Origin: a virus
Lineage: Duplodnaviria > Caudoviricetes
Strand: one strand, 5' to 3'
IMG/VR virus record: IMGVR_UViG_3300031170_000001
Coordinates: 5,977-69,976 of that record
DNA: 64,000 nucleotides
Shown piece after piece: positions 9,622 through 63,851 of this stretch; the first letter of the stretch is position 1; the number at the start of each line of letters is the position of its first letter. The position numbers were made by a program, and so were the translations under genes. The notes under the pieces were generated by a model. The model ran no database searches. It saw nothing but the letters and a program-made list of their open reading frames with translations, and had not been told where the DNA came from.

Positions 9622-12302
9622 TTATAGGCCCCCATGAGGCTCTGAGCCTCGGCAATGGCGTCATACGGATCGCCCACCTGACCGCCTTCGGCCCGGTTCT
9701 TCATCATGTCGATCAGGTCGGAGTGCGTGGTCGGGATGCCGCTGGTCGAATCCCAGATCGTGTGATGGGCAAGGTGCTGGTAGAACGGGTCGTACTGCGG
9801 CGGTGCGGCAAAGCTCAACGCGCGCTGGCGGTCGGCAAGGCGCTGCACCGCTTCCTCACCGCCGCCGACACGGCGCATGGCGTTCTCGGCCAGCTTCGGA
9901 TCGATGGCGTGCATGTTAATCTGCCGGGCGTCCAGCGTGGGCCGTCCGCCGTAGCCAATCAGCGAGCCGAAAAAGCCCTTCTTGGCGGCATCGATGCCCT
10001 CGTAGGCATCGGTAACGTCGGCCCATTCGGACGGATGACTCATACCCCTGCGGGCGCGGTCCACTTGCTCGGCAATCTTGGCCTCGGTGCCGGGAACGAT
10101 CTTGGGGGCCGCCGTCATCTGACGACCAAGAAGATTCTGGAAGCCGAAGGGGGTCATGTTCTGCACGGCATCGGCAATCGCCTCGGGATGGGCCTCGCCC
10201 TCCGAAGCGTATTGCAGATACTTCTGGCCCTGCTTGCCGCCCAACCAATCGGCATAGGCCCCTTCGGGCCGGATCATCCGGTCGGGTGACGACAACCTGA
10301 TGCCGGGCAACGCCTCGCGGCCAATCGCCTGCCGCTGCATGCTCGACAAGGTAGTGAGGTAAGCCTTGAGCGCGTCGCGGGTGTCCAAGCCTTCCAGCGA
10401 CACCTTCTTGGAGAAATCGCGCATGAAGTCGCCGTAGTTCAGGACATGCTCGGGCATCTCACGCGGCAGCTTCTTGGCGATGCCACCCAGCGGGTGCCAC
10501 GGCCAATCCTCGATCTTGGTGGTCGCCGCATCCTTGTAGCGCCGCAGGGTGCGGGCGATTTCCGCTACCTTGCTGCCGGTCTGGTAGCCGGGGACGGAGC
10601 CGCCGCTTGCGTAGCCAAACGCCTTTAGCTCGGTGTCGGGAACCTCAACCACCTGACTGTGATACTGGCCGGGTGTCGCGCGCATCCAGATAGGCGGGTC
10701 CTGATTGACGCTCTTGGACCACGACGCGAAGGACGGCACCCCGGTCGTGTCGGCAATACGCTGGGCGTTGGTCGAAGCGATGTCGGGGGCATGAACCCGG
10801 TTCTTGTTGACCATCGCCCGCACGTCTGAGAACGGCAGGCCACCGAAGGTCTGTGTCTCGATGTAGGGGATGTCCGCCGCCCGGTTGAGCCTGCCTGCCG
10901 TGCGCGGCTCATTGGCTTCAAACGGCCTGCCACCGCCCCGGTTTACGTTATTGTAATCCGGGTCCAGCACTTTTTTCATCCACTGATCAAGATCGGCATT
11001 CTGTTTAGTGTCGTTCTCGAAAAACTTATAAGGCCCCCTCGTCCCGATGTTCTGATTCAAGGAATCATCGAGAAAGAACGTCGAACGCGCTTTGACCGAA
11101 GGATCAAGCACCGCGCCCCACTTGCCGTAGCTGGACGATCCGAGATTGCTCAAATCCGCGATGTGCCCGTAGATCGGGCGAAGGTGCATCGGGCTGTCTT
11201 CGGGGATGCCCCACAACGCATGTTCCGTCGCCCGACGATAGCGCGGCGACAGGGTGCCTTCGCTGGTCCCCGTCTCAAATTGGCTTTTGAACCGTCCGTC
11301 GTTGCGGATGCGCGCCCACACGTTGTCCGGCGCGGCGACGGTGATGGGGCGCTTGAAGATGTCGGCAATCGCCGTGGCGTAGTCCTGCATCGCCTGAAGG
11401 CCGCCGACAAGGGCACCGCCCTTGCCGCCGCCATGCTGGAAATGCTCAATCTGACCGCCCTCGGCCTTGAAGATCGGGTTGCCTATCTTATCGACGTACT
11501 TTTGAAATTCCGGCCAGAGATCGCCTATCGGCAGATCATGGCCCCGCACCAAGGTTCCCTTCGGGTCCATGAACAGGGGAGCCGCCTCGGCCAATTTGTT
11601 GGCCAGCAAGCCATGCGCCATGTTGCCGTAGGCTTCGGACTGTTGCTCGGGGCTCAATTTCTTCAGCCACGGCTTGGCAAAATCCTGAAAATCCACGCTA
11701 AAAGTCGTGGCCCCCATCGGCCACTTTCCGGTCGCCTGATCCTTGTAGAGATTCATCTTATACTTTGCGTCGGCGTCCTTGATTTTCCGCAGCGTCTCAT
11801 ATGTGTCGGCATACTTGCCGTATTCCAGCGGCGGCATCAGCGACACGAGATTGGGGTCCTTGGCCCCGGCGATCCACATATTCTCACGGGCATACTTGTC
11901 GGGGGCGACGTAGGTCCCCTGCTTCTTCAAATCCGTGACGTAATAATCCTTGGCCCAATTGGCGAGATCGCCCTGCGACGGCACGACCGTACTTCGCATC
12001 GGATGAGCATGGGCCGAATAGATCGGCTCGCCCTGCGCCGCCATCCGCTGGTTCCACTGCTGATGACCGGAGGGCCATTCAACGCTTCGCGGGCCACCCG
12101 TATTGCTCAGCGTGTTCGACAGATCGGCCGGGCCACCCGTGGGGCCGATGATCAGCTTCTCGTTGCCTGTATCGAGCATGTGCTGGCGCACGTTCCTGAC
12201 CGCCGCCTGCTCGGCAGGCGTGCCGTGGCCCAGCAGGCCCTTGATCCATTGAATCTTGTCAACCATGGCAATTGACGCCTGTTTGGAGGCAATTGCCCCC
12301 AA
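9618..12302 (-). CDS. Polyvalent protein: JAB/JAMM-like + DUF3626-like + HhH glycosylase-like modules
   Basis: 894 aa (start may be ATG 12266); E48..HAHP-x7-SQGD; FKSQFETGTS..RPIYG..YG..RSTF..DS..YIETQ; GIDAAKKGFF..PTLDARQ; modules joined by AxGG linkers. Confidence 0.7.
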   Translation of the reverse strand: MGAIASKQASIAMVDKIQWIKGLLGHGTPAEQAAVRNVRQHMLDTGNEKLIIGPTGGPADLSNTLSNTGGPRSVEWPSGHQQWNQRMAAQGEPIYSAHAHPMRSTVVPSQGDLANWAKDYYVTDLKKQGTYVAPDKYARENMWIAGAKDPNLVSLMPPLEYGKYADTYETLRKIKDADAKYKMNLYKDQATGKWPMGATTFSVDFQDFAKPWLKKLSPEQQSEAYGNMAHGLLANKLAEAAPLFMDPKGTLVRGHDLPIGDLWPEFQKYVDKIGNPIFKAEGGQIEHFQHGGGKGGALVGGLQAMQDYATAIADIFKRPITVAAPDNVWARIRNDGRFKSQFETGTSEGTLSPRYRRATEHALWGIPEDSPMHLRPIYGHIADLSNLGSSSYGKWGAVLDPSVKARSTFFLDDSLNQNIGTRGPYKFFENDTKQNADLDQWMKKVLDPDYNNVNRGGGRPFEANEPRTAGRLNRAADIPYIETQTFGGLPFSDVRAMVNKNRVHAPDIASTNAQRIADTTGVPSFASWSKSVNQDPPIWMRATPGQYHSQVVEVPDTELKAFGYASGGSVPGYQTGSKVAEIARTLRRYKDAATTKIEDWPWHPLGGIAKKLPREMPEHVLNYGDFMRDFSKKVSLEGLDTRDALKAYLTTLSSMQRQAIGREALPGIRLSSPDRMIRPEGAYADWLGGKQGQKYLQYASEGEAHPEAIADAVQNMTPFGFQNLLGRQMTAAPKIVPGTEAKIAEQVDRARRGMSHPSEWADVTDAYEGIDAAKKGFFGSLIGYGGRPTLDARQINMHAIDPKLAENAMRRVGGGEEAVQRLADRQRALSFAAPPQYDPFYQHLAHHTIWDSTSGIPTTHSDLIDMMKNRAEGGQVGDPYDAIAEAQSLMGAYK

Positions 12303-12304
12303 TC

Positions 12305-12535
12305 CTAGCCGGGATCAGGCTCTTTAGCCACCAAATCGGGGGGCGGGTCGCTAATCAACGCCTCGGCCATCTCCGCCAACTGGCCGTCGATCTTTGCGTC
12401 GTTCTCGGCCCCGATGCTCTCGACCAAGCTCTGTGGCGTGGCCGCCAGCGCCCGGTGCTTGTGTTCGTAGTGCCGAAGCCTGCGGGCGCACTGCACCAGA
12501 CAAGTCTTGATCCGCAGTTGGTCTTCCTCAGTCAT
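12305..12535 (-). CDS. Hypothetical protein
   Basis: 76 aa ORF overlapping the terminase end. Confidence 0.6.
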   Translation of the reverse strand: MTEEDQLRIKTCLVQCARRLRHYEHKHRALAATPQSLVESIGAENDAKIDGQLAEMAEALISDPPPDLVAKEPDPG

Positions 12536-14096
12536 AGGGTGCCCTTACGGTCTTGGGTTTCTCGCGGCCCGTCTCCACGTCGTACTGGTACTCAAACTCA
12601 GGGGTGTTCGCAGGCGGCGGCGGCGGGGTGAAAGTGCCGTCGTCATTGACCTTTCCCAGCTTGTGGAAGACGCCATCGGCCACGAACCTATCGGCAAACA
12701 CCCGCCACGCCTGAGAGCATGAATCGACCCAATCATCGTGCGGGGTGGTGCCGGGGCCAGAATACACACAAAGCTGCTTCAGCACAGGCTCAACCCAGTC
12801 CTTCGGCTTGCCGGGGCGCTTGTCGCTCTCGGGCAGCCAGATGCGGCCGTGCCGGGCGATGTGGCTGACCGCGTGGAGCCTGCTGATCTTGTCGGCCCGG
12901 CCGGGATTGTAGGGGTAGGAATCGATGCCGTGCTGGCTCAAAACCTGTCGCAGGGAGATGCCTGAGCCCTTGTCCTCGATGATCAGCAGGTCGGGGTGCT
13001 TGGTCTGCTCCTGAAAATACTTCTGCCCGGCCAAGGTTTCCTGAAGCATCTCCTGCCTGCGACCGTAGAGCGCCTTCATCTCGCCCTTGGCCTTGTCGAG
13101 CAAGTCGGGGAAGCCCAGCCATTCCTCCCAGCATTCCAAGAGGTAGAGATGCCATTGGCGCTTGTGCTGAAACGCCCCCCACACCGTGCAGGCCGTGGGA
13201 TCGGATGAGAAGGTCTTGCGGTCGTAGGTCTTTTCGGTGAAGGCGGTGTCCATCGACACCATGATGTATTCCAGCCAAGGCAGCGGCTCGGACTTGGGCC
13301 AGATTTTCAGCCAGCTACGCTTGATGATGGCGCTTTCGCTGATATCCAGAAGCTCGCCGTGAAGCTCCTGACGGCCGATGTTGGTGCCTTCGTACTGGCG
13401 CAAGTCTTCAAAGAAATTTTCCGCGAGATTCGCCCGATTCTCATAAGTTGAGCCACGGATGAGCCTTGTCTCGGGCGTGCCGTCGCGCTTTTTCTTGTCG
13501 ATCATGTCGGCAAGGAACTGCAACGGCTTGGGCGTGGTGGTGTAGAATTTCTGCGGCTGGACGAGGCTGCCATCGGGCAGGCGGTAGGCAATACGAGTGC
13601 TGAAGTTGATGTTGTAGAGGGCTTCCTCGGCCTTGTACCAAGCGGCAAGCTCGTCGCCCCACACGAACGTACACTGCGGGCCGCGCAATCGGTCGGGGGT
13701 TTCGGACGAGAACCCCCGGATGATTGAGCCGTTCCACAGCGTCATTTCCGGATAAGGGGAATAAGTCAGGCTTTGGATGCAGTCGGCCGGGATGACCGCG
13801 CGCAAACCCGCCGGGCCTTCAAACACCGTGCCTCTCAGATCGGAGTAGGTCGGGGCGACGACGTGAATCACCACGCCGGGATACAGTCCGGCCTGCCGTC
13901 GCACCCAGCTTGCGCCCGTCTTGGTCTTGCCCCAGCCACGACCGGCCATCGCCAGACTGTTAAGCCAGCCTTCCAAGGGAAGTATCTGCTTGGGCCGCCC
14001 GCCGATGTTGGGCTCGCCGGAATGCCACTGCCGCTCGGCCTCCAAGAACGCCATGTCGGCGTGGGAAGCAGAGTCGAGCGTGGCCAGTTCAGGCAT
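12528..14096 (-). CDS. terL: Terminase large subunit
   Basis: Walker A AGRGWGKT, LRGPQ..WGDELAAW, TTTPKP, GSTYEN, nuclease motifs SMDTA and HDDWVDS. Confidence 0.95.
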   Translation of the reverse strand: MPELATLDSASHADMAFLEAERQWHSGEPNIGGRPKQILPLEGWLNSLAMAGRGWGKTKTGASWVRRQAGLYPGVVIHVVAPTYSDLRGTVFEGPAGLRAVIPADCIQSLTYSPYPEMTLWNGSIIRGFSSETPDRLRGPQCTFVWGDELAAWYKAEEALYNINFSTRIAYRLPDGSLVQPQKFYTTTPKPLQFLADMIDKKKRDGTPETRLIRGSTYENRANLAENFFEDLRQYEGTNIGRQELHGELLDISESAIIKRSWLKIWPKSEPLPWLEYIMVSMDTAFTEKTYDRKTFSSDPTACTVWGAFQHKRQWHLYLLECWEEWLGFPDLLDKAKGEMKALYGRRQEMLQETLAGQKYFQEQTKHPDLLIIEDKGSGISLRQVLSQHGIDSYPYNPGRADKISRLHAVSHIARHGRIWLPESDKRPGKPKDWVEPVLKQLCVYSGPGTTPHDDWVDSCSQAWRVFADRFVADGVFHKLGKVNDDGTFTPPPPPANTPEFEYQYDVETGREKPKTVRAPYD

Positions 14097-53633: not shown

Positions 53634-54542
53634 CTAGGCCCCCAACAGGCTACGCAGATAGCGGACGCGACCGCCTTCCGCTTTTTTCTCGGCCGGGGGA
53701 CGACCAACGACCGCTATGTAGTTTTGCGTCTCAGGAGGCAAAAACTCCGCATAATGTCGTCCCGTTTCCTTGGCCTTCTCCAGAGCCCTCTGTACGTTTC
53801 CCGGCCCTGCGTTGTAGGCCGCCGCTGCCAAGATCGGATCGCCAAACGTCTTCAGTTGCGCCTCGTAGTAGGCTTTTCCAAGCGCAAGATTGTAGTCGCG
53901 CGCCTCCGCATCCTTGGCCGGATCGCCAGTCGGGCCGCGATTGAATAGCTCAGGGTTCCATGGCAGTCCCGCCAGCTTGGCGGCTTCCGGAGCCGTGCCC
54001 GGCATGATCTGGGCGATGCCCAGCGCGCCAGCAGGCGACGTGATGATCTTGCCGTTGCTGAAGTGCGTCCCGCCGCTTTCCTGTTTGATCATGTTGCCGA
54101 AGATGCCTTCGGCAGTGCCGGTCAACGTGGTGCCTGAGCCCTTTGCCGCATTGGGATTGGCCGCCACGGCAGCCGCCATCTTCTTGCGTTCTTCCGCCAT
54201 GGCCTGAAGCTGGGCGTCGATGGCGCTCATCCGCTGATTGAAGTCGCCCTTGTCCTCTTTCTGGGACTCCGGGTTGATGATGCCCGCGATGCTCTTGCCG
54301 ATATCGCTAATCTCATGGCTGGCTTCGGTCGGCATCTTCAGCATTTCCGGCTGCGGGATGTCCATGCGCGGCGGCGGCGGCGATTGCAGCATGGTCGATG
54401 GACCGACAGGACGGGCTTCCGGTATGGCAACGGACTTGCCGAACACGCTGGAAGGCGCACGCGCGGCGGCGCGCATCGCGGCAACAGGAACCCCCGCCTC
54501 GCTGGTCGGTGCTTGGTCGAAGAAGTTGCCCCAGCTTTCCAT
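53634..54542 (-). CDS. Virion-associated lytic transglycosylase (SLT domain)
   Basis: QESGG, GALGIAQIMPGT, AAAYNAGPGNV, ETQNY motifs. Confidence 0.9.
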   Translation of the reverse strand: MESWGNFFDQAPTSEAGVPVAAMRAAARAPSSVFGKSVAIPEARPVGPSTMLQSPPPPRMDIPQPEMLKMPTEASHEISDIGKSIAGIINPESQKEDKGDFNQRMSAIDAQLQAMAEERKKMAAAVAANPNAAKGSGTTLTGTAEGIFGNMIKQESGGTHFSNGKIITSPAGALGIAQIMPGTAPEAAKLAGLPWNPELFNRGPTGDPAKDAEARDYNLALGKAYYEAQLKTFGDPILAAAAYNAGPGNVQRALEKAKETGRHYAEFLPPETQNYIAVVGRPPAEKKAEGGRVRYLRSLLGA

Positions 54543-56902
54543 TACTGAGTCCTGTCGCTTTCCTGTGGCACGTAGTGCCGCTCAGAACCGGGGACCCCGC
54601 TGTACGGCAATACCTTCGCCGTCCTGTTTATGCCGGTGTTCCAGTTGGCCTTGTTGCGCTGACTCTTGGACAGAATTTCTCGGATTGCCTCGACGGCATC
54701 CTGATTGCCGCGCTCACCTTTCATCGCCAGCAGCTTGGCCACGGCATTGGCTGTAGCCTTGGACGCCTCACCCCGGTCAGTGAGACGCCCCACCCAGTGA
54801 CGCCAAGTCGATGGCGCAGACGGATTGACCACCGTCGCCACGATGTCGGAAAGCACGCTGGGATCATCGAACTCCTTGCTCATCTCGCCGCGTCGTGCCG
54901 TTTGGCTGCCTGCCAGCGCGCGCGCCGCATTGCTGTGGCGCTCTTCCAACTGCATCATTTCCTTACGCATCTGGTCCCACTCGCCCATCTTGTCAGGCGG
55001 CACCAATGCCTTGTACTTCTCGGCCAGATTGGGCTTGTTCATTATGTCAGCCCAATTCGTCTGGAATTTGCTGGCGTCGCTGCCTACCAGCTTTTGATAC
55101 AACGCCCGCTGCCCGCCGATACGAAACATATCCTTGGCGGCATCCGAAATATTCGGATCGGCAAGGAATGCCTCGATATCCTGTTTGCCAATGCCCTGAT
55201 CCAGTTCATTGACACCCTTGCCGAACACATCTTCGCGGCCCTTGCGGAGGGCATCGATCAACTGCGATTCCTCGCCATACTTCCGCATTGCCTGCTTGTA
55301 TGGGTCACTGGAGTTCATGATCGCTTCGTTCAAGTCGTTGCGAATATCAAACGTGTTCTTGGTATTGAATTTGGGCTCAGTCTTGGCCAAAAGATCAAGC
55401 GACCGCTTGATGTCGTGAAGATGCTGGACATTGAGATCGATGATATTGCCATCGGCATCGAACGTGCCAATCTGACGAGGGCCGCCACGTTGCGTCTGCG
55501 CCCACGTTCTGGCTGTTCCAACCACGTCAGGATGCAATTGAGACGCACGCCGGTAAGCATCGAGAATTTCTGGCGACGTGACGTTCTGGGCGTAGGCGGG
55601 CTGAAATCCGGTCAAAGCCTCCTGCGCGCGATGCTTCAACATCTGGTCTTCGGTGCCACGGAAATTGGCGTCGCCCATCAGTCGCTTGAACCAATTGCTG
55701 ACAAGCCCGTGCTGCGACTCGTCGCGCGCAAGGTCTTCCGGCAAGGTCTTGTTGTACTGGCGACGGACAATATCCTTCGCCAGATTGGCAGTGTCTTCGC
55801 CGCCTTTGAGCGACACGGCTTCGGTCGTGCCGGGCAGCACATCGGCCATCATCACGTCCCGGCCCTTTTGCTGCGGCCCTATGGGACCCGGCACCGATAT
55901 CGCCGCGTTGGCGCGCTGCTCAGCCAGTGCCGTCTTTAGATCGTTGGCAGCCGCGTTGGCGAAGTCGGGATGTGTCGTGTCGATGGTGCCATTGGGGCGG
56001 CGCGGAACGGCATTAGGCAAGCCATAGGCATCGGAACGATCCGTCTGCAACCTCTTACGCAGATAATCGGCAACCGAATTGTTCTTGCTCAGCACGACGT
56101 TTTTGCCGTGTTCAAGCAGCTTGCCAACGCCTGTTGTAGCCAGCCCGGCCCCGGTGCCGAACAGGGCACCATAGCCCGCGTTTTCGAGACGATTTTCAAC
56201 TCCGCCTTCGCCACCGGCAAAGCCGCCCGCCGCGCCCAGTCCCGCGCCCGCAGCGGTGTTTTTGATCAACTGAGCCCACTTGGGACTGTTGGCGGCAAAC
56301 TCTGCGGCACGTCCCGCCATGGGCAGCTTGGAGGCTAGATTAGCCGCCATCAGCCCCCCACGGGTGCCCTGCAACAGTGCGCCAGCACCCATGGTCAGCG
56401 GAATAGTCGCCAGCGCGCCCGCACCCTGTAAGGCTATGCTTTCGAGATTGCCGTGCTTGTCGGCGTAGTCCTTGACGCCCTGCCGCTCAGCCGCCAGCGC
56501 CGTGTCGTAATCGGTGCCGCCCCAGCTTTGAGGAATGAGCGAGCGTATCTTGGCGACGCCTTCGTCGGCCAATGGAATGACGCCCTGTCCAAAGGTGCGA
56601 TAGAAATTCACGTCCCCCAAACGGCTGTTGACCGCCTCGCTGACACCGGGAATCGCCATCAACGGGCCAAGCGGCGTCGCGGCAGTGGCGATGCGGGCAA
56701 TCCTCGCCAGATTGCTCTTGGGAAGATAATTTGTTCCGTCGTCGGTAGATGATGCGGCGGGAGGAGCCGGTGTGGGTGACGCAGGGAGCTTATCTGGCGC
56801 GTTCTGCTTCATCCAGCTTTCGATGCGTCGATCTATGACCTTCTGATCGGTGTCATCGTCAAAGGTGAACTCTTGGCCATATCGGGTGACTTTTTTCGTC
56901 AT
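54542..56902 (-). CDS. Putative DNA ejection/internal virion protein
   Basis: 786 aa; helical with glycine-zipper segments; podoviral ejectosome position. Confidence 0.65.
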   Translation of the reverse strand: MTKKVTRYGQEFTFDDDTDQKVIDRRIESWMKQNAPDKLPASPTPAPPAASSTDDGTNYLPKSNLARIARIATAATPLGPLMAIPGVSEAVNSRLGDVNFYRTFGQGVIPLADEGVAKIRSLIPQSWGGTDYDTALAAERQGVKDYADKHGNLESIALQGAGALATIPLTMGAGALLQGTRGGLMAANLASKLPMAGRAAEFAANSPKWAQLIKNTAAGAGLGAAGGFAGGEGGVENRLENAGYGALFGTGAGLATTGVGKLLEHGKNVVLSKNNSVADYLRKRLQTDRSDAYGLPNAVPRRPNGTIDTTHPDFANAAANDLKTALAEQRANAAISVPGPIGPQQKGRDVMMADVLPGTTEAVSLKGGEDTANLAKDIVRRQYNKTLPEDLARDESQHGLVSNWFKRLMGDANFRGTEDQMLKHRAQEALTGFQPAYAQNVTSPEILDAYRRASQLHPDVVGTARTWAQTQRGGPRQIGTFDADGNIIDLNVQHLHDIKRSLDLLAKTEPKFNTKNTFDIRNDLNEAIMNSSDPYKQAMRKYGEESQLIDALRKGREDVFGKGVNELDQGIGKQDIEAFLADPNISDAAKDMFRIGGQRALYQKLVGSDASKFQTNWADIMNKPNLAEKYKALVPPDKMGEWDQMRKEMMQLEERHSNAARALAGSQTARRGEMSKEFDDPSVLSDIVATVVNPSAPSTWRHWVGRLTDRGEASKATANAVAKLLAMKGERGNQDAVEAIREILSKSQRNKANWNTGINRTAKVLPYSGVPGSERHYVPQESDRTQ

Positions 56903-56905
56903 GGT

Positions 56906-58474
56906 CTAATCCCATTCCGGACCAAGATGAACGGCTCCACCGCCCTTGTACTGGCCGCCTTCGGCATGGGCTGGTGCAGCATCACCGTGTTTCTTCTTCA
57001 TGTATTCTTGCCATGAGATGCGTGCCGGGTTGGGCACCACCATGCCGTTATCGGTGAAGCCTGCGCGTCCTTCATCCGAACGGGCATACTCGGCCCACGC
57101 ATCATCGGCACCCATAGTCGTCTTGTAGTGACTGAAGTAGGTATTGATGAATTTGCGCTTCTCGATCTGGTCTTTCAAAATCTGGCTACGAACAGCCAAT
57201 AGATTCCTGTTGGCGTCTTCCAAGCCACCAATCCGGGGCACGGCTTTCTCAAACAACTCGCGCTCAAAGTTGGAGATAGCGCCCTGTCCCTGCGGCACAC
57301 CATGAATCTGGTTCTTGGTGAAGATGGCTTCGATTTCGTCGTGCGCCGCTTGCGGATAACGCGCATGGGGGAAGACCCCCGCCGTACGACCAGTGATGCC
57401 GGGGTATTTCTTCATAATCTCGGTAGCCCGCTCGATGCCGCGAAGCTCTGCAAGGTTCTTGTCCTGCTCGACTTGATTGTCCTTGGTTTCCTTCTCGTAG
57501 TTGGCCCGCTCTATCTTGTAGGCAGCCATCGCGTCGGTCGGGCTGGTAAGGCCGTCGTAGGTGTAGCCGGTCGGCTTGGGAGGCAACCCCAGCGACTTGG
57601 CCTTGTCGATATCTTCCGGCTTGTCGCCCGGCACCTTGAAACCGCCCTTGGGCGCGGAATCAAAGATGGCGCGATTTTGCTCGACAAACTTCTTGATGCT
57701 TTCCTCGGGCACCTTGAGCGAACGCGCAGTCCCTTCATAGAAGCTGAGAAGTGCCGCCTGTCTTGCTTCCGGTGTCGCAAAGTGGCCTTCACCCATAACC
57801 TTGATTTGAGCCAAGGCCCTTTCCATGGCGTGATTGTTGGCCTTTTCTTCCAGCGCCGCCGCGTTGTCCGCCGCCTTCTGCCCAACCTTGTCGGTCTGTC
57901 CCACCGTCTTGATAAGGCCCGATTCGATGGCGCGAATGGTCGATTCGTCGCCCACTTGCAGTGCGCGCAGATAGGCCAGCTTGTCCTGTAGCGGGGCCTG
58001 TTCGATGCCTGCCCGCTTCATCGCCATCGTCGCCAGCTTGTACTGATAGTCTTCCTCGTCGCTGCGGTCCTTCTGGATCGCCGGAACCATCTGTTTGATG
58101 CCCGCACCAAGCTGCGAACCAAAATCCCCGGTTCCGCTCAACATGCCCGCACCCAGCGCCATCAACGGCAGATTGGAACGGCCTTCACGGCTGCGCTTCA
58201 ACGACGCCGTAGTGTCGTCCAACAGCTTGCTCATCGTATCGACGGTTAGCTGCTGCTTGCTGAAGACGTTATCGACTTCCTTGGTGCGGTTGGCCATCGA
58301 CGCTTCATGCTTGGCCAGAAACTCCAATCCCATGGCCTTTGCGGCTTCGGGATTGGTCATCGGCGCTTCGATCACGGGCGGCGCAGGCGCAGGCGCTACC
58401 GCAGGCGCAACGGTCCCACCATCGTCATAGCCCGGCGGGGGATTGCCGAAGGGAGAGGGACCGTTGCCAGCCAT
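56906..58474 (-). CDS. Putative DNA ejection/internal virion protein
   Basis: 522 aa coiled coil; GAISNFERELF motif; YDDGG and AEGG motifs near the ends. Confidence 0.65.
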   Translation of the reverse strand: MAGNGPSPFGNPPPGYDDGGTVAPAVAPAPAPPVIEAPMTNPEAAKAMGLEFLAKHEASMANRTKEVDNVFSKQQLTVDTMSKLLDDTTASLKRSREGRSNLPLMALGAGMLSGTGDFGSQLGAGIKQMVPAIQKDRSDEEDYQYKLATMAMKRAGIEQAPLQDKLAYLRALQVGDESTIRAIESGLIKTVGQTDKVGQKAADNAAALEEKANNHAMERALAQIKVMGEGHFATPEARQAALLSFYEGTARSLKVPEESIKKFVEQNRAIFDSAPKGGFKVPGDKPEDIDKAKSLGLPPKPTGYTYDGLTSPTDAMAAYKIERANYEKETKDNQVEQDKNLAELRGIERATEIMKKYPGITGRTAGVFPHARYPQAAHDEIEAIFTKNQIHGVPQGQGAISNFERELFEKAVPRIGGLEDANRNLLAVRSQILKDQIEKRKFINTYFSHYKTTMGADDAWAEYARSDEGRAGFTDNGMVVPNPARISWQEYMKKKHGDAAPAHAEGGQYKGGGAVHLGPEWD

Positions 58475-61400
58475 CAGCGCCCGCCCCCGCTGTAAGGCAT
58501 ATTCGTCGCCATCGAAACCGTATTGAACGCATCACCCAGATAAGGGAAAAGACTTTCTATCCGGCGAGCGTGTTGGGCTGCTCTAATCAATTTATCGGCG
58601 CTGCCAACGCCTATGGCGTTGGTGAGCCAGTTACCGGCCTGTCGGGCCTTTTCCCCGCCGCCCGTCTGTGGCGCACCAAAGAAATTGTCCACCCCGGTAC
58701 GGATGCCTTCCATGGTCGGAAGCCAAGACTTGCCGCCTATGTCCAAGCCCTCGCGCGCGGCGTTAAGCGCGCTGCCGGGAAGTCCCGCAACCTGCGCCAT
58801 GTCGGCAATGCCATGAAGGCCCTGCCAACCCATGTCCTTCCAGTAACGCGGCAAGTCAGCCCGCGCCTCCTGTTCGTATCCCTCAAGCCGCGAGTTGTTT
58901 TCTGCCAAACGCTGTTGCCGCAAGGCATGGCGGTCCGCCGGACTCCGCGAGAAAGGCCCCGGATTAAGCCGCTTGTCGAGGCCCACACTGGAATCGAGGA
59001 ACGGGCTATCCATGTCCCGCATCCAAGAATCGTAATCGGGGTCAAGGGTTTCACCGCCTTGGTAATAGCCCGGTATCGACCCGCCACGCGCCCGTCGCAG
59101 GGCTTCGTGATAGTTCACCGTCTTGTAGCCCTGTTCGTTGTGGCCCACGGCATGCGGGCGCTTGCGCTCCACGTCCTGTGCGCTCAAGCCCCTCATGCGG
59201 AAGGGCGAGTTCTTGTAGTTGTAATCGATGACCTTCAGGCCGTTGTGGGTGGTGCCCACACGTTCGATGTTCTCTTTCGCCCGCTCGTCAGACAGGAAGG
59301 GGAGGACTGACGAGGCGATGCTGGCAACGGGGCCTAGTATGCTGCCGATACCGCCTCCGCCCCCTCCGCCCCCACCACCACCGCCTCCCAGAAGGCCGCC
59401 AAGGCCGCCCATCAGGCCGCCAAGGCCGCCACCGCCGCCTCCACCGCCCGAAGGCGCGGCTGCTGGTGCCGCTTGGGGCAATGGTCCGAAGTTGCCATAT
59501 GTCGCTTGGCTGGGAGCTACAGGGCCTATTTTAAGTTCATCACCAAACGGTCCATCCGGAGAATCTTCATCTAAGGCCGAGCCACCTTGAGCGTAGCCCA
59601 CGGGACCTCCGTGCGCGAACGTGATGCCCGTTCCGGCAACGTCGCCCCATCCTGAGCCCATCATGTCGAAGTAATTGCCGCCCGGCTGAAAATCTGCGGG
59701 CATGTAGGCATTGTCCGCACCACTTCCCACCGCAGCGGTTGGCGTGATGCCAAGCATCTCGTCGGTCGGGTTTCCAGATTCGCTACCACCGAACAGGCCC
59801 ATGATGCCCTTCGCCAACTTGCCCAAGTCCTTGTTGTTGACGGCATTGCTGGTGCCGCTGGAGCCTGATCCACTCCCGCTGCCCCTTTCAGATGTGGGCA
59901 GAGGCCCGAAACGACCGTACTCGGCGTGGGCTGGGCCTATTTGGCCCATCTTGAGCAGCGTGCCGAAGGGGCCACTGGGAGCGTCTTCGTCCAAGGCCGC
60001 GCGATCAGTTTCCTTCGGCGGAGCAGCCTGTCCACCCGCTGCAAGATTGATAAAGGTCAGCGGCGTGCCTTCGGTAACATCATTCCACGCTTCGCCGGGA
60101 TGACCTTCGATAAGTGCGCCGATACCGGCACCCGCGCGGCCCAAGCCTTCGGCCCATACATCACCAAAGCCGGGGGTGATGATGTTGCCGAGAACATCGC
60201 CAACAAGACGCCCGCCCTTATTGCCAATCTGCTCACCTTGGCCGTACTTCTCGCGTCCGCTGCTGCCGTCGAAGCCTTCCCAGATGTTGGCCACCGGATC
60301 GAGCGGCGTCTCAGGCGAATCCTTCTCGCCCTGATAATTGAAGATGCTGTCGCCTGTGCCATAGAGGTCTTTGGCAATGCTGAGCCACGGCATGCCAGTG
60401 CCGCCGCCCACGTCGCCGCCGCCCAGATAACCCGGCACGCCACCACCATCGGCAAAGTCCAACTTGCCGCGAATGCCCGCGCCCCAGTTGGGCTTCGCCT
60501 GCGCTCCATCAGGACCAACATCCTTGCTGAAATGCCCTTGGACACCGAGACGTAAATTCGGGGAAACCTGATGCTCGTATCCGCCTTCGGCAGAAAACAT
60601 CCTGTCGCGCGGATCGTAGAAGGCCCCACCCGACAGGCGACCCTTGCCAATATCAACCCCGGCATTCCACGGCGATACGCCCTGCGGATTGATGAGATGG
60701 GTCCGGCCACCTTCATCGTAACCCGGCACGCCACCGCCACGGGCCAGCCGCAGCTTGGTCAATTCGCCGGTCGTCGCCTTGTGCATCTGTCGTTCATGCT
60801 GATGCACTCCGCGCTCAATCATTGAGCGGTCCTGAGCCTCGTCGTTGTTAAACGGACCACCATGAAACACGCCACCCTTGGCAAACCGGCGATTGGCCGG
60901 ATGCGGCATCGGCGGGGGCGGCTGCGGCATCGGATTAAGGGCCGCCGCCGTAGGGGGAGACGGCGGCGGCATTCCCGGCATGCCTGTGGGCTGCATGCCT
61001 CCCATCCCGCCCATAGGGCCGGGCTGGGGTGGTGCCCTCATGGCGTTGCGCTTACGGACGCCGGTCACAGTCGGAACGTAGCCGCCCGCGTTGAAGTAGT
61101 TAATCTGGCCGCCGCGTGCGGAGTTTTGGGTTTGGTTGTTGTTGTTCTTTTCTTCCTCGCCGCCGCCCATCGCGCCCGCAAGGGCTGCACCCGCACCGAC
61201 AATCTGACCGAACGGTGAACCACCCGCCTGCGTGGATGAGCCTCCTACCTGCGTGTTGCTGCTGGTCTGATTGTTGAAGTTGCTGGTGGTCGGAAGCTGC
61301 CAGCCTTGAGCCAAGGACTGCTGCATCTGCAAGCCTTGCAGCGGCAGGGACTTCTTCTGCTGTTCAAGCCCCTGCTGCTGATTGCCCACGCTCAGCAAGG

Positions 61401-62640
61401 CATTGGCGTCGGTATAGCCCGCGTTCTGGCGGTCCAGACCCATCTTCTCCTGCGCCTGCGCGGCGCTGATGTTGGCCGCCGTCGCCTGCGTGCCGATATC
61501 GGCCGTCGTCTTGCCAAAACCGGCGCGGGTCTGGGCGTCCTGAATGGCTGTCTGTGCAGCTTGCGGAGCAAGGCCCGCTATTCTGTTCTGATCAGCGGTT
61601 GCCGCCGTCAGCCCGCTCTGCCAGCCCTGATTGGCCATCTGGGCTAGCTGCTGATTGAGCGAGTTTTGCTGGTTGTAGACGGCATTGCCCACGGCATCGC
61701 CATGCCGCTCACGGCCAAACTGGGCCGCCGCTCCACCCGTAAACTGATCGTTGATACGCTCCAGCGTACCACCCGGTGCTTGGAATGCCGTATTGCTGGC
61801 ATCGGCCACAGCACCCATCGCGTCCTTCTGGAACGGGCTCATGTAATTGCCAACCGTGGTATTCGCACCTTGGCTGGCTTGCTGAGCGAACGGATTGAAG
61901 GCTTCGGTGCCGGTCTGCATGGCGGCAGCCTGATTGACGAAAGGCTGTGCGCTGCCCTGAATGCCCGCCGCCGTACCCTGCGCCGTGTTCAGTCCATTCT
62001 GAGCGGCGTTGAAGTTGCCCTGATAGACGCCTTGATTGTTGCGGACACCTTGGAAGGCGTTTGTCTGATCGGCGTTGAAGTCCGCGATGTACTTGCTGGG
62101 ATCGCTGAAATCCAGATTGGTGGCGGCATTCAGCACGTTGCCACGCAACGTGTTGTACGCCGGATCGGTAATCTGGTTGTTGGTCGTGCCTGAGCTAGAG
62201 CCCTGTGAACTGGTGGTCTGCGACTGCGTAGCCGGGGTGCCGCCGAACAGGCTGCCCAAGAAAAAGCCGGGAAGATTGCTGCCTTTCTTGAAGGTGCCGC
62301 CCTTCTTGTAGTTGGGCACGTTAGGCGTACCTGCACTCTGCCGCCGGTCCTTGTAGACGTTTTCAAGCCGCTCACGCGCGTCGTTGCGCTTGATCACCGC
62401 ATCAAGCAATCCCTCATGGCGGGCACGCTTGCCCTCTGGGCTGTAGTACGTGAAGGGCGATGGAGGAGCCTTCGGGACCGCAGGCACCGCTTTGACGAGC
62501 GGATCAACCTCGCCGCCCGTGTCGTACTTGCCGCCGCGCTTGAACGCCTTGCGTGGCTTACGAATGCCGCCCATGGCCCCGAACGGACCAGCCGAAGGCC
62601 CCACCGAAGCGGGGCTGAGCAGAGGGAATTTCTTGGCCAT
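58474..62640 (-). CDS. Modular ejection/pilot protein with S74-like domain and about 16 xxxGG motifs
   Basis: 1388 aa; Q/A-rich pilot-like region, glycine zippers, LSDERAKENI...GLSAQDVE...VNY. Confidence 0.7.
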   Translation of the reverse strand: MAKKFPLLSPASVGPSAGPFGAMGGIRKPRKAFKRGGKYDTGGEVDPLVKAVPAVPKAPPSPFTYYSPEGKRARHEGLLDAVIKRNDARERLENVYKDRRQSAGTPNVPNYKKGGTFKKGSNLPGFFLGSLFGGTPATQSQTTSSQGSSSGTTNNQITDPAYNTLRGNVLNAATNLDFSDPSKYIADFNADQTNAFQGVRNNQGVYQGNFNAAQNGLNTAQGTAAGIQGSAQPFVNQAAAMQTGTEAFNPFAQQASQGANTTVGNYMSPFQKDAMGAVADASNTAFQAPGGTLERINDQFTGGAAAQFGRERHGDAVGNAVYNQQNSLNQQLAQMANQGWQSGLTAATADQNRIAGLAPQAAQTAIQDAQTRAGFGKTTADIGTQATAANISAAQAQEKMGLDRQNAGYTDANALLSVGNQQQGLEQQKKSLPLQGLQMQQSLAQGWQLPTTSNFNNQTSSNTQVGGSSTQAGGSPFGQIVGAGAALAGAMGGGEEEKNNNNQTQNSARGGQINYFNAGGYVPTVTGVRKRNAMRAPPQPGPMGGMGGMQPTGMPGMPPPSPPTAAALNPMPQPPPPMPHPANRRFAKGGVFHGGPFNNDEAQDRSMIERGVHQHERQMHKATTGELTKLRLARGGGVPGYDEGGRTHLINPQGVSPWNAGVDIGKGRLSGGAFYDPRDRMFSAEGGYEHQVSPNLRLGVQGHFSKDVGPDGAQAKPNWGAGIRGKLDFADGGGVPGYLGGGDVGGGTGMPWLSIAKDLYGTGDSIFNYQGEKDSPETPLDPVANIWEGFDGSSGREKYGQGEQIGNKGGRLVGDVLGNIITPGFGDVWAEGLGRAGAGIGALIEGHPGEAWNDVTEGTPLTFINLAAGGQAAPPKETDRAALDEDAPSGPFGTLLKMGQIGPAHAEYGRFGPLPTSERGSGSGSGSSGTSNAVNNKDLGKLAKGIMGLFGGSESGNPTDEMLGITPTAAVGSGADNAYMPADFQPGGNYFDMMGSGWGDVAGTGITFAHGGPVGYAQGGSALDEDSPDGPFGDELKIGPVAPSQATYGNFGPLPQAAPAAAPSGGGGGGGGLGGLMGGLGGLLGGGGGGGGGGGGGIGSILGPVASIASSVLPFLSDERAKENIERVGTTHNGLKVIDYNYKNSPFRMRGLSAQDVERKRPHAVGHNEQGYKTVNYHEALRRARGGSIPGYYQGGETLDPDYDSWMRDMDSPFLDSSVGLDKRLNPGPFSRSPADRHALRQQRLAENNSRLEGYEQEARADLPRYWKDMGWQGLHGIADMAQVAGLPGSALNAAREGLDIGGKSWLPTMEGIRTGVDNFFGAPQTGGGEKARQAGNWLTNAIGVGSADKLIRAAQHARRIESLFPYLGDAFNTVSMATNMPYSGGGR

Positions 62641-63851
62641 CAGCCCTTATCCTTTCCCCGGCGACGCAAGCCGTCGCCCATCGGATTGCCGACAAGGTAT
62701 TCCTGTGCCGATTTGGCAGGCGGCGAGAACTTGCCTCTCGTCAACGCCTTGCCTTTGTGCTTGCGAAGATTGGCGCGCATCTCGTCCATTTTCTTGGCAC
62801 CATGATCGGGATTGCCGTCGCCCAGCAACGCCATCGACTCGGCGTCCATGACATATTCCTTGGGGCTCAATCGGGCGTTCACGTCGTCGGCCCGGCCGCT
62901 GGTGCCGCCGTACTCGTTGCCCACGAAATTCTCGCCACCGCTGTCGAAGGTGTGGCGCACCGGCATCTTGGCCGAACCGTAAAGCTCCGGATATCCCCCA
63001 CGCATCAAGGGAATCGGTCCACCATCGGCTTTGTTGAAAGGCGACTTGGAAGTGTTAGGTCCGGCTGTTTTCGGCTGCACGTTTGTCACCCGGCCCTTGG
63101 CCGCCACCCGCTCAGCCCACGTTGGATCGCGCGCCGGATTTTGGCTGAACAGATTTACGTCGGGCGGGTACAGCGTGGACATATCGACCGAAGGGGGCGG
63201 CGGCGGCGGCCACTGTGGCGCAACGGCATTGTCCTCGCCCGGCATCGGTCCGAATGGTGTCTGGGACACCTGTGCTGATGGCGGCGGCCATTGCGGAGCC
63301 GTTGCCCTGTCTTCACCGGGCATCGCACCGACACCCGGTCCACTACCGGGAACCGGAAACATGCTCATCGGATTGGGCAGCGTGCTGGGATCGGGCAGCG
63401 GTCCAATCATCTTGTTGATCTTGTTATTCAGCGCGGCGGCACTGGAAATCTTGGTAACGGGCTTTGAGGCGGGCTTGGGCGGTCCGTACTGCACGTTGCC
63501 GAAGGGCGTGGGGGAATTTTCCAGCGACCGGAACCACGCATCCACGGCCGGATTTTTGCGGTCGTAGGGATCGGTTACACGCGGGTTCTTGCTGCCACCC
63601 GGCCGATACGGATCGCTTTCAAACTGGCGGCCAATCCAATCGACCACGCGCGAGCCAGCGGACGGACCGGGACGGCTGGCAGCCTTGTCGCTGCCGAACT
63701 GGCGACCAATCCAGTCCAAGACGCGCTGAAGGGCATCGGGCTCATAGCCCCGTGCCTGATTGGCCTGTTGTCGGGCAGCGTCGCGAGATTGCGTGAGATT
63801 CGAGCTACCGGGCGGGTTAGCCCTATCATACGGCGATACGGGCGGCGGCAT
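62640..63851 (-). CDS. Pro-rich virion-region protein with conserved C-terminal GxSDxxxAxLSxxEYV-type domain
   Basis: GGTSGRADDVNARLSPKEYVMDAESMALLGDGNPDHGAKKMDEMR. Confidence 0.7.
   Translation of the reverse strand: MPPPVSPYDRANPPGSSNLTQSRDAARQQANQARGYEPDALQRVLDWIGRQFGSDKAASRPGPSAGSRVVDWIGRQFESDPYRPGGSKNPRVTDPYDRKNPAVDAWFRSLENSPTPFGNVQYGPPKPASKPVTKISSAAALNNKINKMIGPLPDPSTLPNPMSMFPVPGSGPGVGAMPGEDRATAPQWPPPSAQVSQTPFGPMPGEDNAVAPQWPPPPPPSVDMSTLYPPDVNLFSQNPARDPTWAERVAAKGRVTNVQPKTAGPNTSKSPFNKADGGPIPLMRGGYPELYGSAKMPVRHTFDSGGENFVGNEYGGTSGRADDVNARLSPKEYVMDAESMALLGDGNPDHGAKKMDEMRANLRKHKGKALTRGKFSPPAKSAQEYLVGNPMGDGLRRRGKDKG

What the first reader, a model, noticed from the sequence alone, without database searches (positions are those of the whole stretch)
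53634..63851. A recurrent A-x-G-G linear motif delimits modules across virion proteins: candidate di-glycine polyprotein processing or virion-loading signal
Seen: the motif (F/Y/L/K/R)-A-x-G-G, often doubled as AxGG-x-(V/I)-x(1-2)-(Y/F)-x-x-GG, recurs at domain junctions and termini of otherwise unrelated proteins. Examples in 58474..62640 are FKRGGKYDTGG, SARGGQINYFNAGG, FAKGG, LARGGGVPGYDEGG, FADGGGVPGYLGGG, LAAGG, FAHGGPVGYAQGG and RARGGSIPGYYQGG. Others: 56906..58474 (YDDGG, HAEGG), 53634..54542 (KAEGG at the C-terminus), 62640..63851 (KADGGPIPLMRGG), 9618..12302 (KAEGGQIEHFQHGG, YASGGSVPGY, RAEGG) and the small genes 6482 (KAKGG) and 6669 (FSKGG). That is roughly 25 copies in 8 proteins. 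I did not see this pattern at module junctions in the replication proteins. Established: JAMM/JAB metallopeptidases cleave after C-terminal Gly-Gly of ubiquitin-like proteins. Inference: the motif is either a protease site that releases cargo modules or a tag for loading proteins into the head. The JAB-like module in 9618..12302 is an in-cis candidate protease; no prohead protease gene was recognised in this window.
Basis: partly seen in the sequence, partly recalled or inferred. Interest (0 to 1): 0.85.

Follow-up and report, generated by a model that had tools for sequence, protein, structure and literature searches.

The report
Glycine joint motif in ejected phage proteins
A short peptide (aromatic or basic residue, Ala, x, Gly, Gly, x, Val/Ile, often doubled) recurs at module borders in the proteins this short-tailed phage stores in its head and shoots into its host, and many unrelated phages carry the same joint, in T5 right beside where the tail ruler protein is cut, but whether it is cut here is untested.

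Summary
All listed copies exist. The extended motif is 30-50 times commoner than in shuffled sequence in six late proteins, and at chance level in the rest of the proteome.

The genome is a 70-kb circularly permuted podovirus with an SU10-type adaptor and no tape measure. The motif-bearing proteins are the ejection or internal-virion proteins and a polyvalent protein (JAB-like, DUF3626, HhH-GPD-like) next to the terminase.

The motif is not private to this phage.
- It borders modules in hundreds of polyvalent proteins: 298 copies against 11.8 expected in 150 representatives.
- It occurs in many tape measure proteins, including lambda gpH, T5 pb2 and JBD30.
- In T5 the single copy starts exactly at the published maturation cut (after R1127). 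In lambda two copies lie in the region where gpH is cut at an unmapped site.

This scan found the same joint before in giant tape measure proteins of other genomes. New here is its use outside tape measures.

My reading is an exposed junction peptide, most likely a processing site (about 0.4), otherwise an uncut hinge or docking strand (about 0.3).

The JAB module is probably real but cannot be the general protease. Only 1 of 43 related joint-bearing proteins has one, and the T5 cut lies before the Ala, not after Gly-Gly. No cleavage has been shown.

The parts
9618..12302 (-). 894-aa polyvalent protein between the terminase large subunit and the presumed portal. It has three modules separated by joint copies.
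   Evidence: 1365 homologues in the exhaustive search, mostly to single modules in other architectures.
11943..12110 (-). JAB-like (JAMM-type) core of module 1, aa 65-120, with E48, H98, H100, S109, D112
   Evidence: Pfam Prok-JAB E 0.005 here and 1.9e-5 in orthologue P0011. Motif conserved in 3 orthologues. The fold was not resolved.
11424..11468 (-). Joint copy, aa 279-293 (K-A-E-G-G ... G-G), between module 1 and the DUF3626 module
   Evidence: Homologue alignments to module 2 begin at aa 275-282. Conserved in P0011 and P0024 while the linker around it has indels.
11016..11312 (-). DUF3626 module (aa 331-429)
   Evidence: Pfam PF12294, E 7e-7, 29 bits against cut-off 27
10569..10613 (-). 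Joint copy, aa 564-578 (Y-A-S-G-G-S-V-P-G-Y), in front of module 3
   Evidence: Most of 150 homologue alignments start at aa 561-588. pLDDT below 50 for aa 549-588.
9693..10535 (-). Module 3, aa 590-870, helical HhH-GPD glycosylase-like fold
   Evidence: pLDDT 76-95. Foldseek matches 3n0u and 3knt (8-oxoguanine glycosylases): TM 0.64-0.66 by target, probability 1.0, E 0.01. No Pfam, PHROG or NCBIfam family.
9651..9695 (-). Joint copy, aa 870-884 (R-A-E-G-G-Q-V), followed by a 20-residue helical tail that ends the protein
   Evidence: 89 of 114 internal ends of this module in other proteins are followed at once by A-x-G-G. pLDDT falls below 50 at aa 871.
6482..6643 (-). 53-aa basic protein with a joint copy (nt 6485-6526) 9 residues from its C-terminus
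   Evidence: The orthologue in relative L124 (59 aa) ends with A-K-G-G-K.
6669..6911 (-). 80-aa protein with the variant F-S-K-G-G (nt 6720-6764). A weak member.
   Evidence: The gene is conserved in L124.
62640..63851 (-). 403-aa protein, first of the ejection-protein block. Joint copy at nt 62988-63032 (aa 274-288).
   Evidence: The copy is conserved in the 550-aa counterpart of relative L122, which has three further copies.
58474..62640 (-). 1388-aa ejection-type protein. It has an N-terminal domain (aa 111-500), a joint-rich middle, a poly-Gly tract, an S74 domain and a C-terminal domain.
   Evidence: PHROG 6121 (virion structural protein) and 4287 (DNA ejection protein). Homologues P0001 and P0002.
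60412..61122 (-). Five joint copies at aa 507, 586, 632, 683 and 729. The last four are spaced 46-51 residues apart.
59551..60045 (-). Joint copies at aa 866 and the doublet at aa 1008/1016. Each is followed by a repeated L-D-E-D...G-P-F-G element.
59146..59292 (-). Peptidase_S74 (self-cleaving intramolecular chaperone) domain, aa 1117-1165, preceded by a poly-Gly tract (nt 59341-59454)
   Evidence: Pfam PF13884, 23.1 bits against cut-off 22. The same domain sits in ejection-type proteins P0003-P0010.
59050..59094 (-). Joint copy at aa 1183-1197, directly after the S74 domain
62500..62544 (-). N-terminal variant copy (K-R-G-G ... G-G), aa 33-47
56906..58474 (-). 522-aa protein with a half-copy at aa 16-20 (nt 58385-58429) and a joint copy 19 residues from the C-terminus (nt 56924-56968)
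53634..54542 (-). 302-aa lytic transglycosylase (SLT, nt 53760-54092) with a joint copy 15 residues from the C-terminus (nt 53640-53684)
   Evidence: Pfam SLT E 2e-12. PHROGs include 'internal virion protein with endolysin domain'.
54542..56902 (-). 786-aa protein of the same block with no canonical copy, only a Gly-rich A-A-G-G

Best explanation
The A-x-G-G element is the core of a 9-15-residue junction peptide: hydrophobic or basic residue, A, x, G, G, x, V/I, often continued as P-G-Y/F-x-x-G-G.

It fences separately folding modules in the proteins that this SU10-like podovirus keeps inside the capsid and expels through the tail. These are the block of ejection or internal-virion proteins after the nozzle genes, the JAB-like/DUF3626/HhH-GPD-like polyvalent protein beside the terminase, and one or two tiny basic proteins.

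It is the same joint that borders modules in hundreds of phage polyvalent proteins and sits in the C-terminal region of tape measure proteins. It is an exposed, flexible linear motif kept by selection on the protein, not on the DNA.

The mechanism I commit to is that the chain is severed beside the joint during or after assembly, so that modules and short C-terminal tails are separated. The model is T5 pb2 (cut mapped after R1127, directly before its only A-E-G-G), and probably lambda gpH.

Shown: the motif, its placement, its distribution and its selection. Inferred: that it is cut, by what, and on which side.
For: Real and specific:
- Enrichment in the six late proteins only.
- Positions are conserved in orthologues at 57-60% identity and in more distant relatives, while the linkers around them have indels.

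At borders:
- Homologue alignment ends, pLDDT drops and Pfam domain ends all coincide with copies.

General:
- In 150 representatives (no two over 50% identical) of proteins sharing module 3, the strict pattern occurs 298 times against 11.8 in shuffles.
- Spacing is either 8-9 residues or domain-sized.
- 89 of 114 internal module ends are followed at once by the motif.
- These are polyvalent proteins in the published sense, with ART-PolyVal, PBECR5, SLT and Hydrolase_2 domains.
- A DNA pattern scan of IMG/VR found the motif in at least 92 distinct contexts, 69 of them in ORFs of 300 aa or more. Features not in the pattern are also conserved: F/L/Y/M at -1 in 60 of 80, and G-G at +11/+12 in 34 of 80.
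- Those ORFs are tape measure proteins, a 'DNA ejection protein' and unannotated giants.
- Non-seed copies in them have Tyr at -1 at 10.7 times background.

Link to processing:
- T5 pb2 has a single A-x-G-G, beginning at A1128. Linares et al. map the maturation cut after R1127.
- Lambda gpH has two copies (A734, A779) inside the unresolved Gly-rich region 690-817, where a piece of about 14 kDa is removed at an unmapped site by an unknown protease.
- A cut before A734 would give 79.8 + 12.5 kDa, against the reported 78-79 kDa for gpH*.
- JBD30 has the same two-copy layout.
- In lambda, JBD30, T5 and several IMG/VR tape measures the last copy lies 75-92 residues from the C-terminus, which is the plug seen in hub structures.
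- Precedent: the glycine-rich junction of TP901-1 Tal is a proven processing site in front of a catalytic domain.

Protein-level selection:
- Ala and Gly codons at the 15 window copies vary freely.
Against: - No cleavage product has been observed for any protein of this phage or its relatives.
- The T5 site is disputed. An older measurement puts it after V1148, and R1127 is also a trypsin site.
- The lambda fit rests on gel masses.
- No protease is shared by joint-bearing phages, and none beyond the JAB-like module was found here.
- Some stand-alone module-3 proteins end two residues after the motif, where a cut would achieve nothing.
- Tandem copies 8-9 residues apart are odd for cleavage sites.
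- Several polyvalent proteins are known to travel uncut, such as N4 vRNAP and ArdC, as reviewed.
- Brucella phage Tb, which shares the S74 ejection-protein domain, lacks the motif.
Confidence: 0.4

Rival explanations
1. Uncut hinge or docking strand. The joint is a short strand-turn-strand element (hydrophobic, A, x, G-G turn, x, V). It lets neighbouring modules fold, unfold and thread through the portal and tail channel one by one. Alternatively it adds as a beta strand to a partner, or to other copies, inside the channel. The chain stays intact.
For: - Hydrophobic positions flank an invariant G-G, and tandem units have a 8-9 residue period.
- Stand-alone modules end with the motif itself.
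- The motif lies in regions that are disordered in the AlphaFold model and unresolved in the lambda and T5 cryo-EM maps.
- No shared protease was found.
- Some polyvalent proteins are delivered uncut.
- All carriers must pass a narrow channel, which is the one thing tape measures, ejection proteins and head-packaged polyvalent proteins have in common (inference).
Against: - An invariant Ala and a preferred Tyr/Phe/basic residue before it are more than a flexible linker needs.
- No partner is known.
- Heads and tails offer different partners.
- The T5 cut coincides with the motif.
- A profile of 47 copies finds no solved structure showing the motif in any conformation.
Confidence: 0.3
2. The JAMM-type module at the N-terminus of the 894-aa protein cuts after Gly-Gly at the joints, in cis and in trans inside the head, as JAMM enzymes trim ubiquitin-like tails.
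For: - The JAB-like module has a conserved E48, H98-x-H100, S109, D112 set, with atlas leads to the same families.
- Hydrophobic-x-G-G tails are the classical JAMM/DUB substrate (established knowledge).
- Lambda, whose gpH is cut by an unknown enzyme, has a Prok-JAB domain in tail protein K.
Against: - The Pfam score is below the gathering threshold in the window protein, and the fold was not resolved.
- Only 1 of 43 joint-bearing relatives has a JAB.
- No JAB in the T5 tail genes.
- The T5 cut is reported before the Ala.
- JAB domains in polyvalent proteins have been read as RadC-like nucleic-acid enzymes.
- No ubiquitin-like fold precedes the joints, as far as tested.
Confidence: 0.1
3. Evolutionary seam only. 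The joint is a neutral, tolerant boundary at which recombination has shuffled cassettes. It persists because exchanges that happen there give viable proteins, and it has no biochemical role of its own.
For: - Modules recur in many orders and contexts, with the joint at their edges.
- The alignment to the nearest homologue of the 1388-aa protein breaks inside a copy, next to a 590-residue insertion.
- Earlier reports of this scan saw cassette swaps exactly at the joint in giant tape measures.
Against: - Synonymous sites at the copies vary freely, so there is no DNA-level homology to guide recombination.
- The residue pattern is conserved across phages with no other similarity.
- Copies also sit at C-termini, where nothing is joined.
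Confidence: 0.08
4. Head-loading (capsid-targeting) tag recognised by the portal, scaffold or capsid interior.
For: - In this phage the motif is confined to proteins expected inside the head.
- 43 of 142 polyvalent proteins end with a joint plus a conserved short tail, which looks like a docking peptide.
Against: - The same joint is abundant in tape measure proteins, which assemble in tails.
- Copies are mostly internal and multiple.
Confidence: 0.07
5. Chance or low-complexity effect of glycine-rich linkers.
For: The 1388-aa protein is 17% Gly and has poly-Gly tracts.
Against: Composition-preserving shuffles never reach the observed counts. Flanking positions not used to find the copies are conserved.
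Confidence: 0.02

Closest known systems
Maturation of siphophage tape measure proteins: T5 pb2 to pb2* + pb2C, lambda gpH to gpH* + gpHC
   Same: Same residue pattern (R/F/Y, then A, E/T, G, G) in a Gly-rich, structurally unresolved stretch that separates a C-terminal piece from the body. In T5 the published cut is at the motif's first residue.
   Different: This phage has no tape measure (SU10-type adaptor). Copies are spread over six to eight gene products and are many per protein. The T5 site is disputed, and the lambda site and protease are unknown.
Polyvalent proteins of phages and conjugative elements (Iyer, Burroughs, Anand, de Souza, Aravind 2017, PMC5512222)
   Same: The 894-aa protein is one: several enzyme-like modules in one chain, encoded among the packaging and head genes, each module recurring in other architectures. 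Proteolytic release of modules was proposed for the class.
   Different: That paper proposes zincin-like MPTase domains as the processing enzymes. By text search it does not use the words 'linker' or 'glycine'. No MPTase was found here.
Glycine-rich processing site of the tail-associated lysin Tal of TP901-1/Tuc2009
   Same: A glycine motif at the junction in front of a catalytic domain of a virion protein. It is cut in part of the population, and Gly-to-Arg changes block the cut.
   Different: Different sequence (a G/N/S run, with no Ala or flanking hydrophobics), a single site, and Gram-positive siphophages.
Junction ('pre-toxin') motifs of polymorphic toxins such as VENN in CdiA or the Rhs core end (from general knowledge, not tested here)
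   Same: A short conserved peptide marking the border at which variable modules are exchanged, in some families also a self-cleavage site.
   Different: Unrelated sequences and secretion routes. One junction per protein.
Di-glycine processing by JAMM/DUB, clan CE or C39 peptidases (ubiquitin-like tails, coronavirus L-x-G-G, adenovirus, bacteriocin leaders; general knowledge)
   Same: A small or hydrophobic residue, x, G, G as a recognition element. A JAMM-like module is present in cis.
   Different: Here Ala is invariant and residues after G-G are conserved too. No ubiquitin-like fold or leader context. The only mapped cut (T5) is on the other side of the motif.

Membership tests
Polyvalent proteins (Iyer et al. 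2017) | Two or more unrelated enzymatic or effector domains in one polypeptide | tested here: met
   JAB-like, DUF3626 and an HhH-GPD-like fold in the 894-aa protein
Polyvalent proteins (Iyer et al. 2017) | Encoded among late genes of a portal-terminase phage | tested here: met
   The gene lies directly after the terminase large subunit and a 76-aa gene, and before the presumed portal and capsid genes. Same order in relative L124.
Polyvalent proteins (Iyer et al. 2017) | The same modules recur in many different domain orders | tested here: met
   1365 homologues. Module 3 is found anywhere in proteins of 300-2300 aa, together with ART-PolyVal, PBECR5, SLT and others.
Polyvalent proteins (Iyer et al. 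2017) | Packaged in the virion and delivered into the host | not testable with these tools
   Needs virion proteomics and infection assays
Tape measure protein maturation site (lambda gpH, T5 pb2) | The carrier is a tape measure protein of a long-tailed phage | tested here: not met
   No TMP family hit in any window protein. SU10-type podovirus adaptor in the genome.
Tape measure protein maturation site (lambda gpH, T5 pb2) | Hydrophobic or basic residue, A, x, G, G in a Gly-rich stretch next to the cut | tested here: met
   The pattern is present in T5 at A1128, in lambda at A734 and A779, in JBD30 at A1020 and A1082, and in the window proteins
Tape measure protein maturation site (lambda gpH, T5 pb2) | The chain is cleaved there | not testable with these tools
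   Literature only for T5. Unmapped in lambda. Nothing known for this phage.
JAMM/JAB metallopeptidase | E ... H-x-H ... S-x-x-D metal site in a JAB fold | tested here: inconclusive
   The residues are present and conserved. Pfam Prok-JAB scores 17.1 bits against cut-off 25 here and 25.0 in the orthologue. The fold is not resolved, pLDDT below 50.
JAMM/JAB metallopeptidase | Substrate is a ubiquitin-like beta-grasp domain ending in G-G | not tested
   No fold data for the segments before the joints, except module 3, which is all-helical
Peptidase S74 self-cleaving intramolecular chaperone | Match to the family profile above the curated score | tested here: met
   PF13884, 23.1 bits against 22, aa 1117-1165 of the 1388-aa protein
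Peptidase S74 self-cleaving intramolecular chaperone | Catalytic Ser-Lys pair and actual self-cleavage | not tested
   Residues were not examined. Cleavage needs experiment.
Prohead-protease substrate sites (T4 gp21, phiKZ gp175 type) | A prohead protease gene in the head module | tested here: not met
   No protease family in any head-module protein. The 391-aa candidate is a coiled-coil, scaffold-like protein. Three small proteins remain unassigned.

The most novel reading that the evidence does not exclude
The hydrophobic/basic-A-x-G-G joint is the common recognition element for the severing of all proteins that leave tailed-phage virions ahead of the DNA: tape measures, podovirus ejection proteins and head-packaged polyvalent enzymes. 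The cut is made by an assembly-dependent or self-catalysed reaction, or in some phages by a JAMM module such as the one here or in lambda gpK. This would identify the 50-year-unknown cleavage sites and mechanism of lambda gpH and T5 pb2, and would show that phages deliver strings of enzymes as polyproteins.
Probability: 0.15. Interest if true: 0.85.

Novelty: new variant of a known kind. Interest (0 to 1): 0.62.

Why it matters
A recent structural paper states that neither the site nor the enzyme of the lambda tape measure cut is known, and the T5 site is in dispute. A conserved motif that starts at the published T5 site and lies in the lambda cut region gives two concrete residues to test by mass spectrometry and mutation.

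The same joint fences enzyme modules in hundreds of polyvalent proteins. In this genome it appears in podovirus ejection proteins. That points to one shared rule for how phages build, and perhaps take apart, the protein cargo they inject.

The motif is not modelled as a unit by Pfam, PHROGs or NCBIfam, and I found no description of it in the searchable literature. A profile for it would help annotate ejected proteins and module borders in uncultured phages.

Tried and rejected
Searches that gave nothing:
- Megablast of the region against isolate phages: no match.
- Relatives of the 403-aa protein in IMG/VR: none.
- A profile of 47 motif copies against PDB sequences: no hit.
- tblastn of short motif-bearing pieces against isolate phages: nothing usable.
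- Paper searches for the motif string, and for polyvalent proteins together with linkers: nothing relevant.
- Notes of this scan by sequence, and by the first word set: nothing.
- Protein atlas search for the 236-aa head-module protein: no usable hit.

Phages checked that lack the motif:
- Caulobacter phage RW, the nearest isolate by terminase (45% identity), largely lacks it.
- Brucella phage Tb, which shares the S74 domain, lacks it.
So the joint is patchy, not universal.

Folding:
- AlphaFold on the whole 894-aa protein resolved only module 3. The JAB-like and DUF3626 parts stayed below pLDDT 50 with the thin alignment.
- AlphaFold of the 391-aa head-module protein was run to look for a prohead protease. 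It gave a coiled coil.

Ideas rejected:
- A DNA-level recombination joint, because of free synonymous variation.
- A general head-loading tag, because tape measures carry the joint.

Not run:
- No complex prediction. No specific pair of partners is claimed, and the JAB-like module could not be folded.


Full report
**What the window is.** The window is bases 5977-69976 of a single 69,976-bp contig whose ends overlap by 143 bp, so the genome is circular or circularly permuted.

One long minus-strand late operon runs in this order:
- terminase large subunit (12528..14096; Pfam Terminase_6N/6C) and a 76-aa gene
- an 894-aa protein (9618..12302)
- a 910-aa protein with no family hit, the presumed portal
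- two tiny genes
- a 391-aa coiled-coil, scaffold-like protein
- the Mu gpT-type capsid protein (780..1694)

Outside the window, on the first 6 kb of the contig, the operon continues with an SU10-type adaptor (E 1.7e-14), a 689-aa tail protein and a 528-aa virion protein. Across the circular junction it continues with the block in the finding: proteins of 403, 1388, 522, 786 and 302 aa (the last with an SLT domain), followed by three fibre proteins. This is the layout of a short-tailed phage, in which the genes between nozzle and fibres encode internal or ejection proteins. No tape measure exists. The nearest isolates are Caulobacter phages RW, GB2A, RLK and KcrB (terminase 45% identical). Metagenomic relatives with the same gene order were fetched as L122-L124.

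**The observation.** The common form is hydrophobic or basic residue, A, x, G, G, x, V/I. In the best copies it continues as P-G-Y/F-x-x-G-G.

Against composition-preserving shuffles the extended form is 50-fold enriched in the 1388-aa protein and nearly 40-fold in the other five late proteins. It is at chance in the remaining 15.7 thousand residues. Ten of 17 strict matches in a six-frame scan of the whole genome fall in these genes.

The copies are at borders.
- In the 894-aa protein, alignments of its 1365 homologues begin at aa 275-282 or 561-588 and end near 876, which are the three copies.
- The AlphaFold model is confident only for aa 590-870, and confidence collapses in both flanks.
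- In the 1388-aa protein, the alignment to its nearest homologue ends at aa 636, inside a copy, next to a 590-residue insertion.
- A copy follows the S74 domain, and another follows the SLT domain of the 302-aa protein.

Copies are kept at the same places in orthologues 57-60% identical, and in more distant relatives, while the surrounding linkers gain and lose residues. Codons for the invariant Ala and Gly vary freely among the 15 copies, so selection acts on the peptide.

**The motif is not private to this phage.** There were 92 distinct contexts, 69 of them in ORFs of 300 residues or more. Features that were not part of the pattern are conserved: F, L, Y or M before the Ala in 60 of 80, and G-G three residues after the Tyr in 34 of 80.

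Those ORFs are tape measure proteins (Pfam TMP_3, PhageMin_Tail and many PHROG tape measure families), a 'DNA ejection protein' (phrog_4287, with the motif directly after the N-terminal domain) and unannotated giants. They often carry 4-7 copies each. In the further A-x-G-G copies of these ORFs, Tyr precedes the Ala at 10.7 times background, and the neighbouring positions show the tandem 9-residue unit.

The 150 listed representatives of proteins sharing module 3 of the 894-aa protein hold the strict pattern 298 times against 11.8 in shuffles. Spacing is 8-9 residues or domain-sized (100-350). 89 of 114 internal ends of the module are followed at once by the motif. 43 of 142 proteins end with a last copy plus a conserved short tail. 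A Pfam census shows that these are polyvalent proteins in the published sense (ART-PolyVal, PBECR5, DUF3626, SLT, Hydrolase_2).

Pfam, PHROGs and NCBIfam do not model the joint. TIGR01541 spans the lambda region but does not match the window proteins. By text search, the founding paper on polyvalent proteins does not use the words 'linker' or 'glycine'.

**Link to known processing.**
- T5. The tape measure pb2 (1219 aa) has one A-x-G-G in its whole length, starting at A1128. Linares et al. 2023 place the maturation cut after R1127. Others dispute this and cite an older value, after V1148. Both positions flank the same short module.
- Lambda. gpH has two copies, at A734 and A779. Both lie inside residues 690-817, which is Gly-rich and unresolved by cryo-EM. 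A piece of about 14 kDa is removed there by an unknown enzyme at an unmapped site. A cut before A734 would give 79.8 and 12.5 kDa, close to the reported sizes.
- JBD30 has the same two-copy layout.
- In these three phages, and in several IMG/VR tape measures, the last copy lies 75-92 residues from the C-terminus. That is the plug which structures show bound in the hub.
- A different glycine motif in TP901-1 Tal is a proven junction cleavage site.

**The JAB idea.** The N-terminal module of the 894-aa protein has E48, H98-x-H100, S109 and D112, conserved in two orthologues. Pfam Prok-JAB matches at E 0.005 here and reaches the gathering score in the closest orthologue. Language-model neighbours are JAB families, at scores that count only as leads. 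So a JAMM-like module is probable.

It does not explain the joint in general.
- Only 1 of 43 related joint-bearing proteins has it.
- The T5 tail genes have none, though lambda gpK does.
- JAB domains in polyvalent proteins have been read as RadC-like nucleic-acid enzymes.
- The T5 cut is on the wrong side of the motif for a JAMM-type reaction.

No prohead protease was found.

**Reading.** It is well supported that the joint is a conserved, exposed junction peptide of proteins that leave the virion through the tail. Its function is inferred.
- I give 0.4 to a processing site. The support is the T5 coincidence, the lambda fit, placement in front of enzyme modules and short C-terminal tails, and the Tal precedent.
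- I give 0.3 to an uncut hinge or docking strand. The support is tandem 9-residue units, stand-alone modules that end with the motif, the lack of a shared protease, and the fact that some polyvalent proteins travel uncut.
The head-loading tag fails for tape measures.

**Relation to earlier notes of this scan.** After I had reached the lambda and T5 link on my own, a word search showed that the scan had already reported the same [F/Y/M]-A-x-G-G joint several times. Those reports were in giant cargo-carrying tape measure proteins of other genomes. They reached the same verdict: real, at swap points, derived from the lambda cut region, cutting untested.

This window adds four things:
- the joint outside tape measures, spread over the ejection proteins and a head-side polyvalent protein of a podovirus
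- a JAMM-like module in cis
- the measurement on 150 polyvalent proteins
- the frequent 'joint plus short tail' C-termini

Noticed in passing
window 59146-59292 (-), with poly-Gly at 59341-59454: The 1388-aa ejection-type protein contains a Peptidase_S74 self-cleaving chaperone domain after a run of about 35 glycines. The same domain sits mid-chain in 1200-1745-aa proteins that also carry SLT, VanY or lysozyme domains (P0003-P0010). This is a second, independent route to cutting this protein.
   Followed up: partly
window 9693-10535 (-): Module 3 of the 894-aa protein folds like HhH-GPD 8-oxoguanine glycosylases and DUF2419 queuine-salvage enzymes. It has over a thousand homologues in polyvalent proteins but no Pfam, PHROG or NCBIfam family.
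   Followed up: partly
P0011-P0160 (homologues of window 9618-12302): Many polyvalent proteins end with a last joint followed by one of a few conserved 10-20-residue tails, for example ones ending ...E-E-R-P-L, ...S-K-Q-G-Y or ...K-Y-G-L. These may be docking or pro-peptides.
   Followed up: no
window 59500-60000 (-), aa about 895-935 and 1024-1060 of the 1388-aa protein: An internal duplication: each of two joint copies is followed by an L-D-E-D-x-P-x-G-P-F-G ... Y-G-x-F-G-P-L-P element.
   Followed up: no
L003:4273-4968 (-), genome bases outside the window: An SU10-type adaptor protein (Pfam PF24175, E 1.7e-14), which places the phage among podoviruses with an SU10-like neck. A greedy ORF choice had hidden it under a 280-aa plus-strand ORF.
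   Followed up: yes
window 63858-64000 and L003:1-143: The contig ends repeat 143 bp, so the genome is circular or circularly permuted. The late operon runs across the junction.
   Followed up: yes
window 43150-46341 (-): The 1063-aa fibre protein ends with an endosialidase-type tail-spike segment and a second Peptidase_S74 domain (aa 922-1028).
   Followed up: no
window 4483-5658 (-): The 391-aa protein of the head module is predicted as a disordered N-terminus plus a 100-residue coiled coil and small helical domains, which is scaffold-like. It has 18 homologues and no family.
   Followed up: partly
L118 (lambda), L119 (T5), L120 (JBD30): In three model siphophages the last A-x-G-G of the tape measure lies 75-92 residues from the C-terminus. 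In lambda and JBD30 a first copy lies 45-62 residues upstream and is followed by a D/E...G-E/D-E-F-V/M segment.
   Followed up: partly
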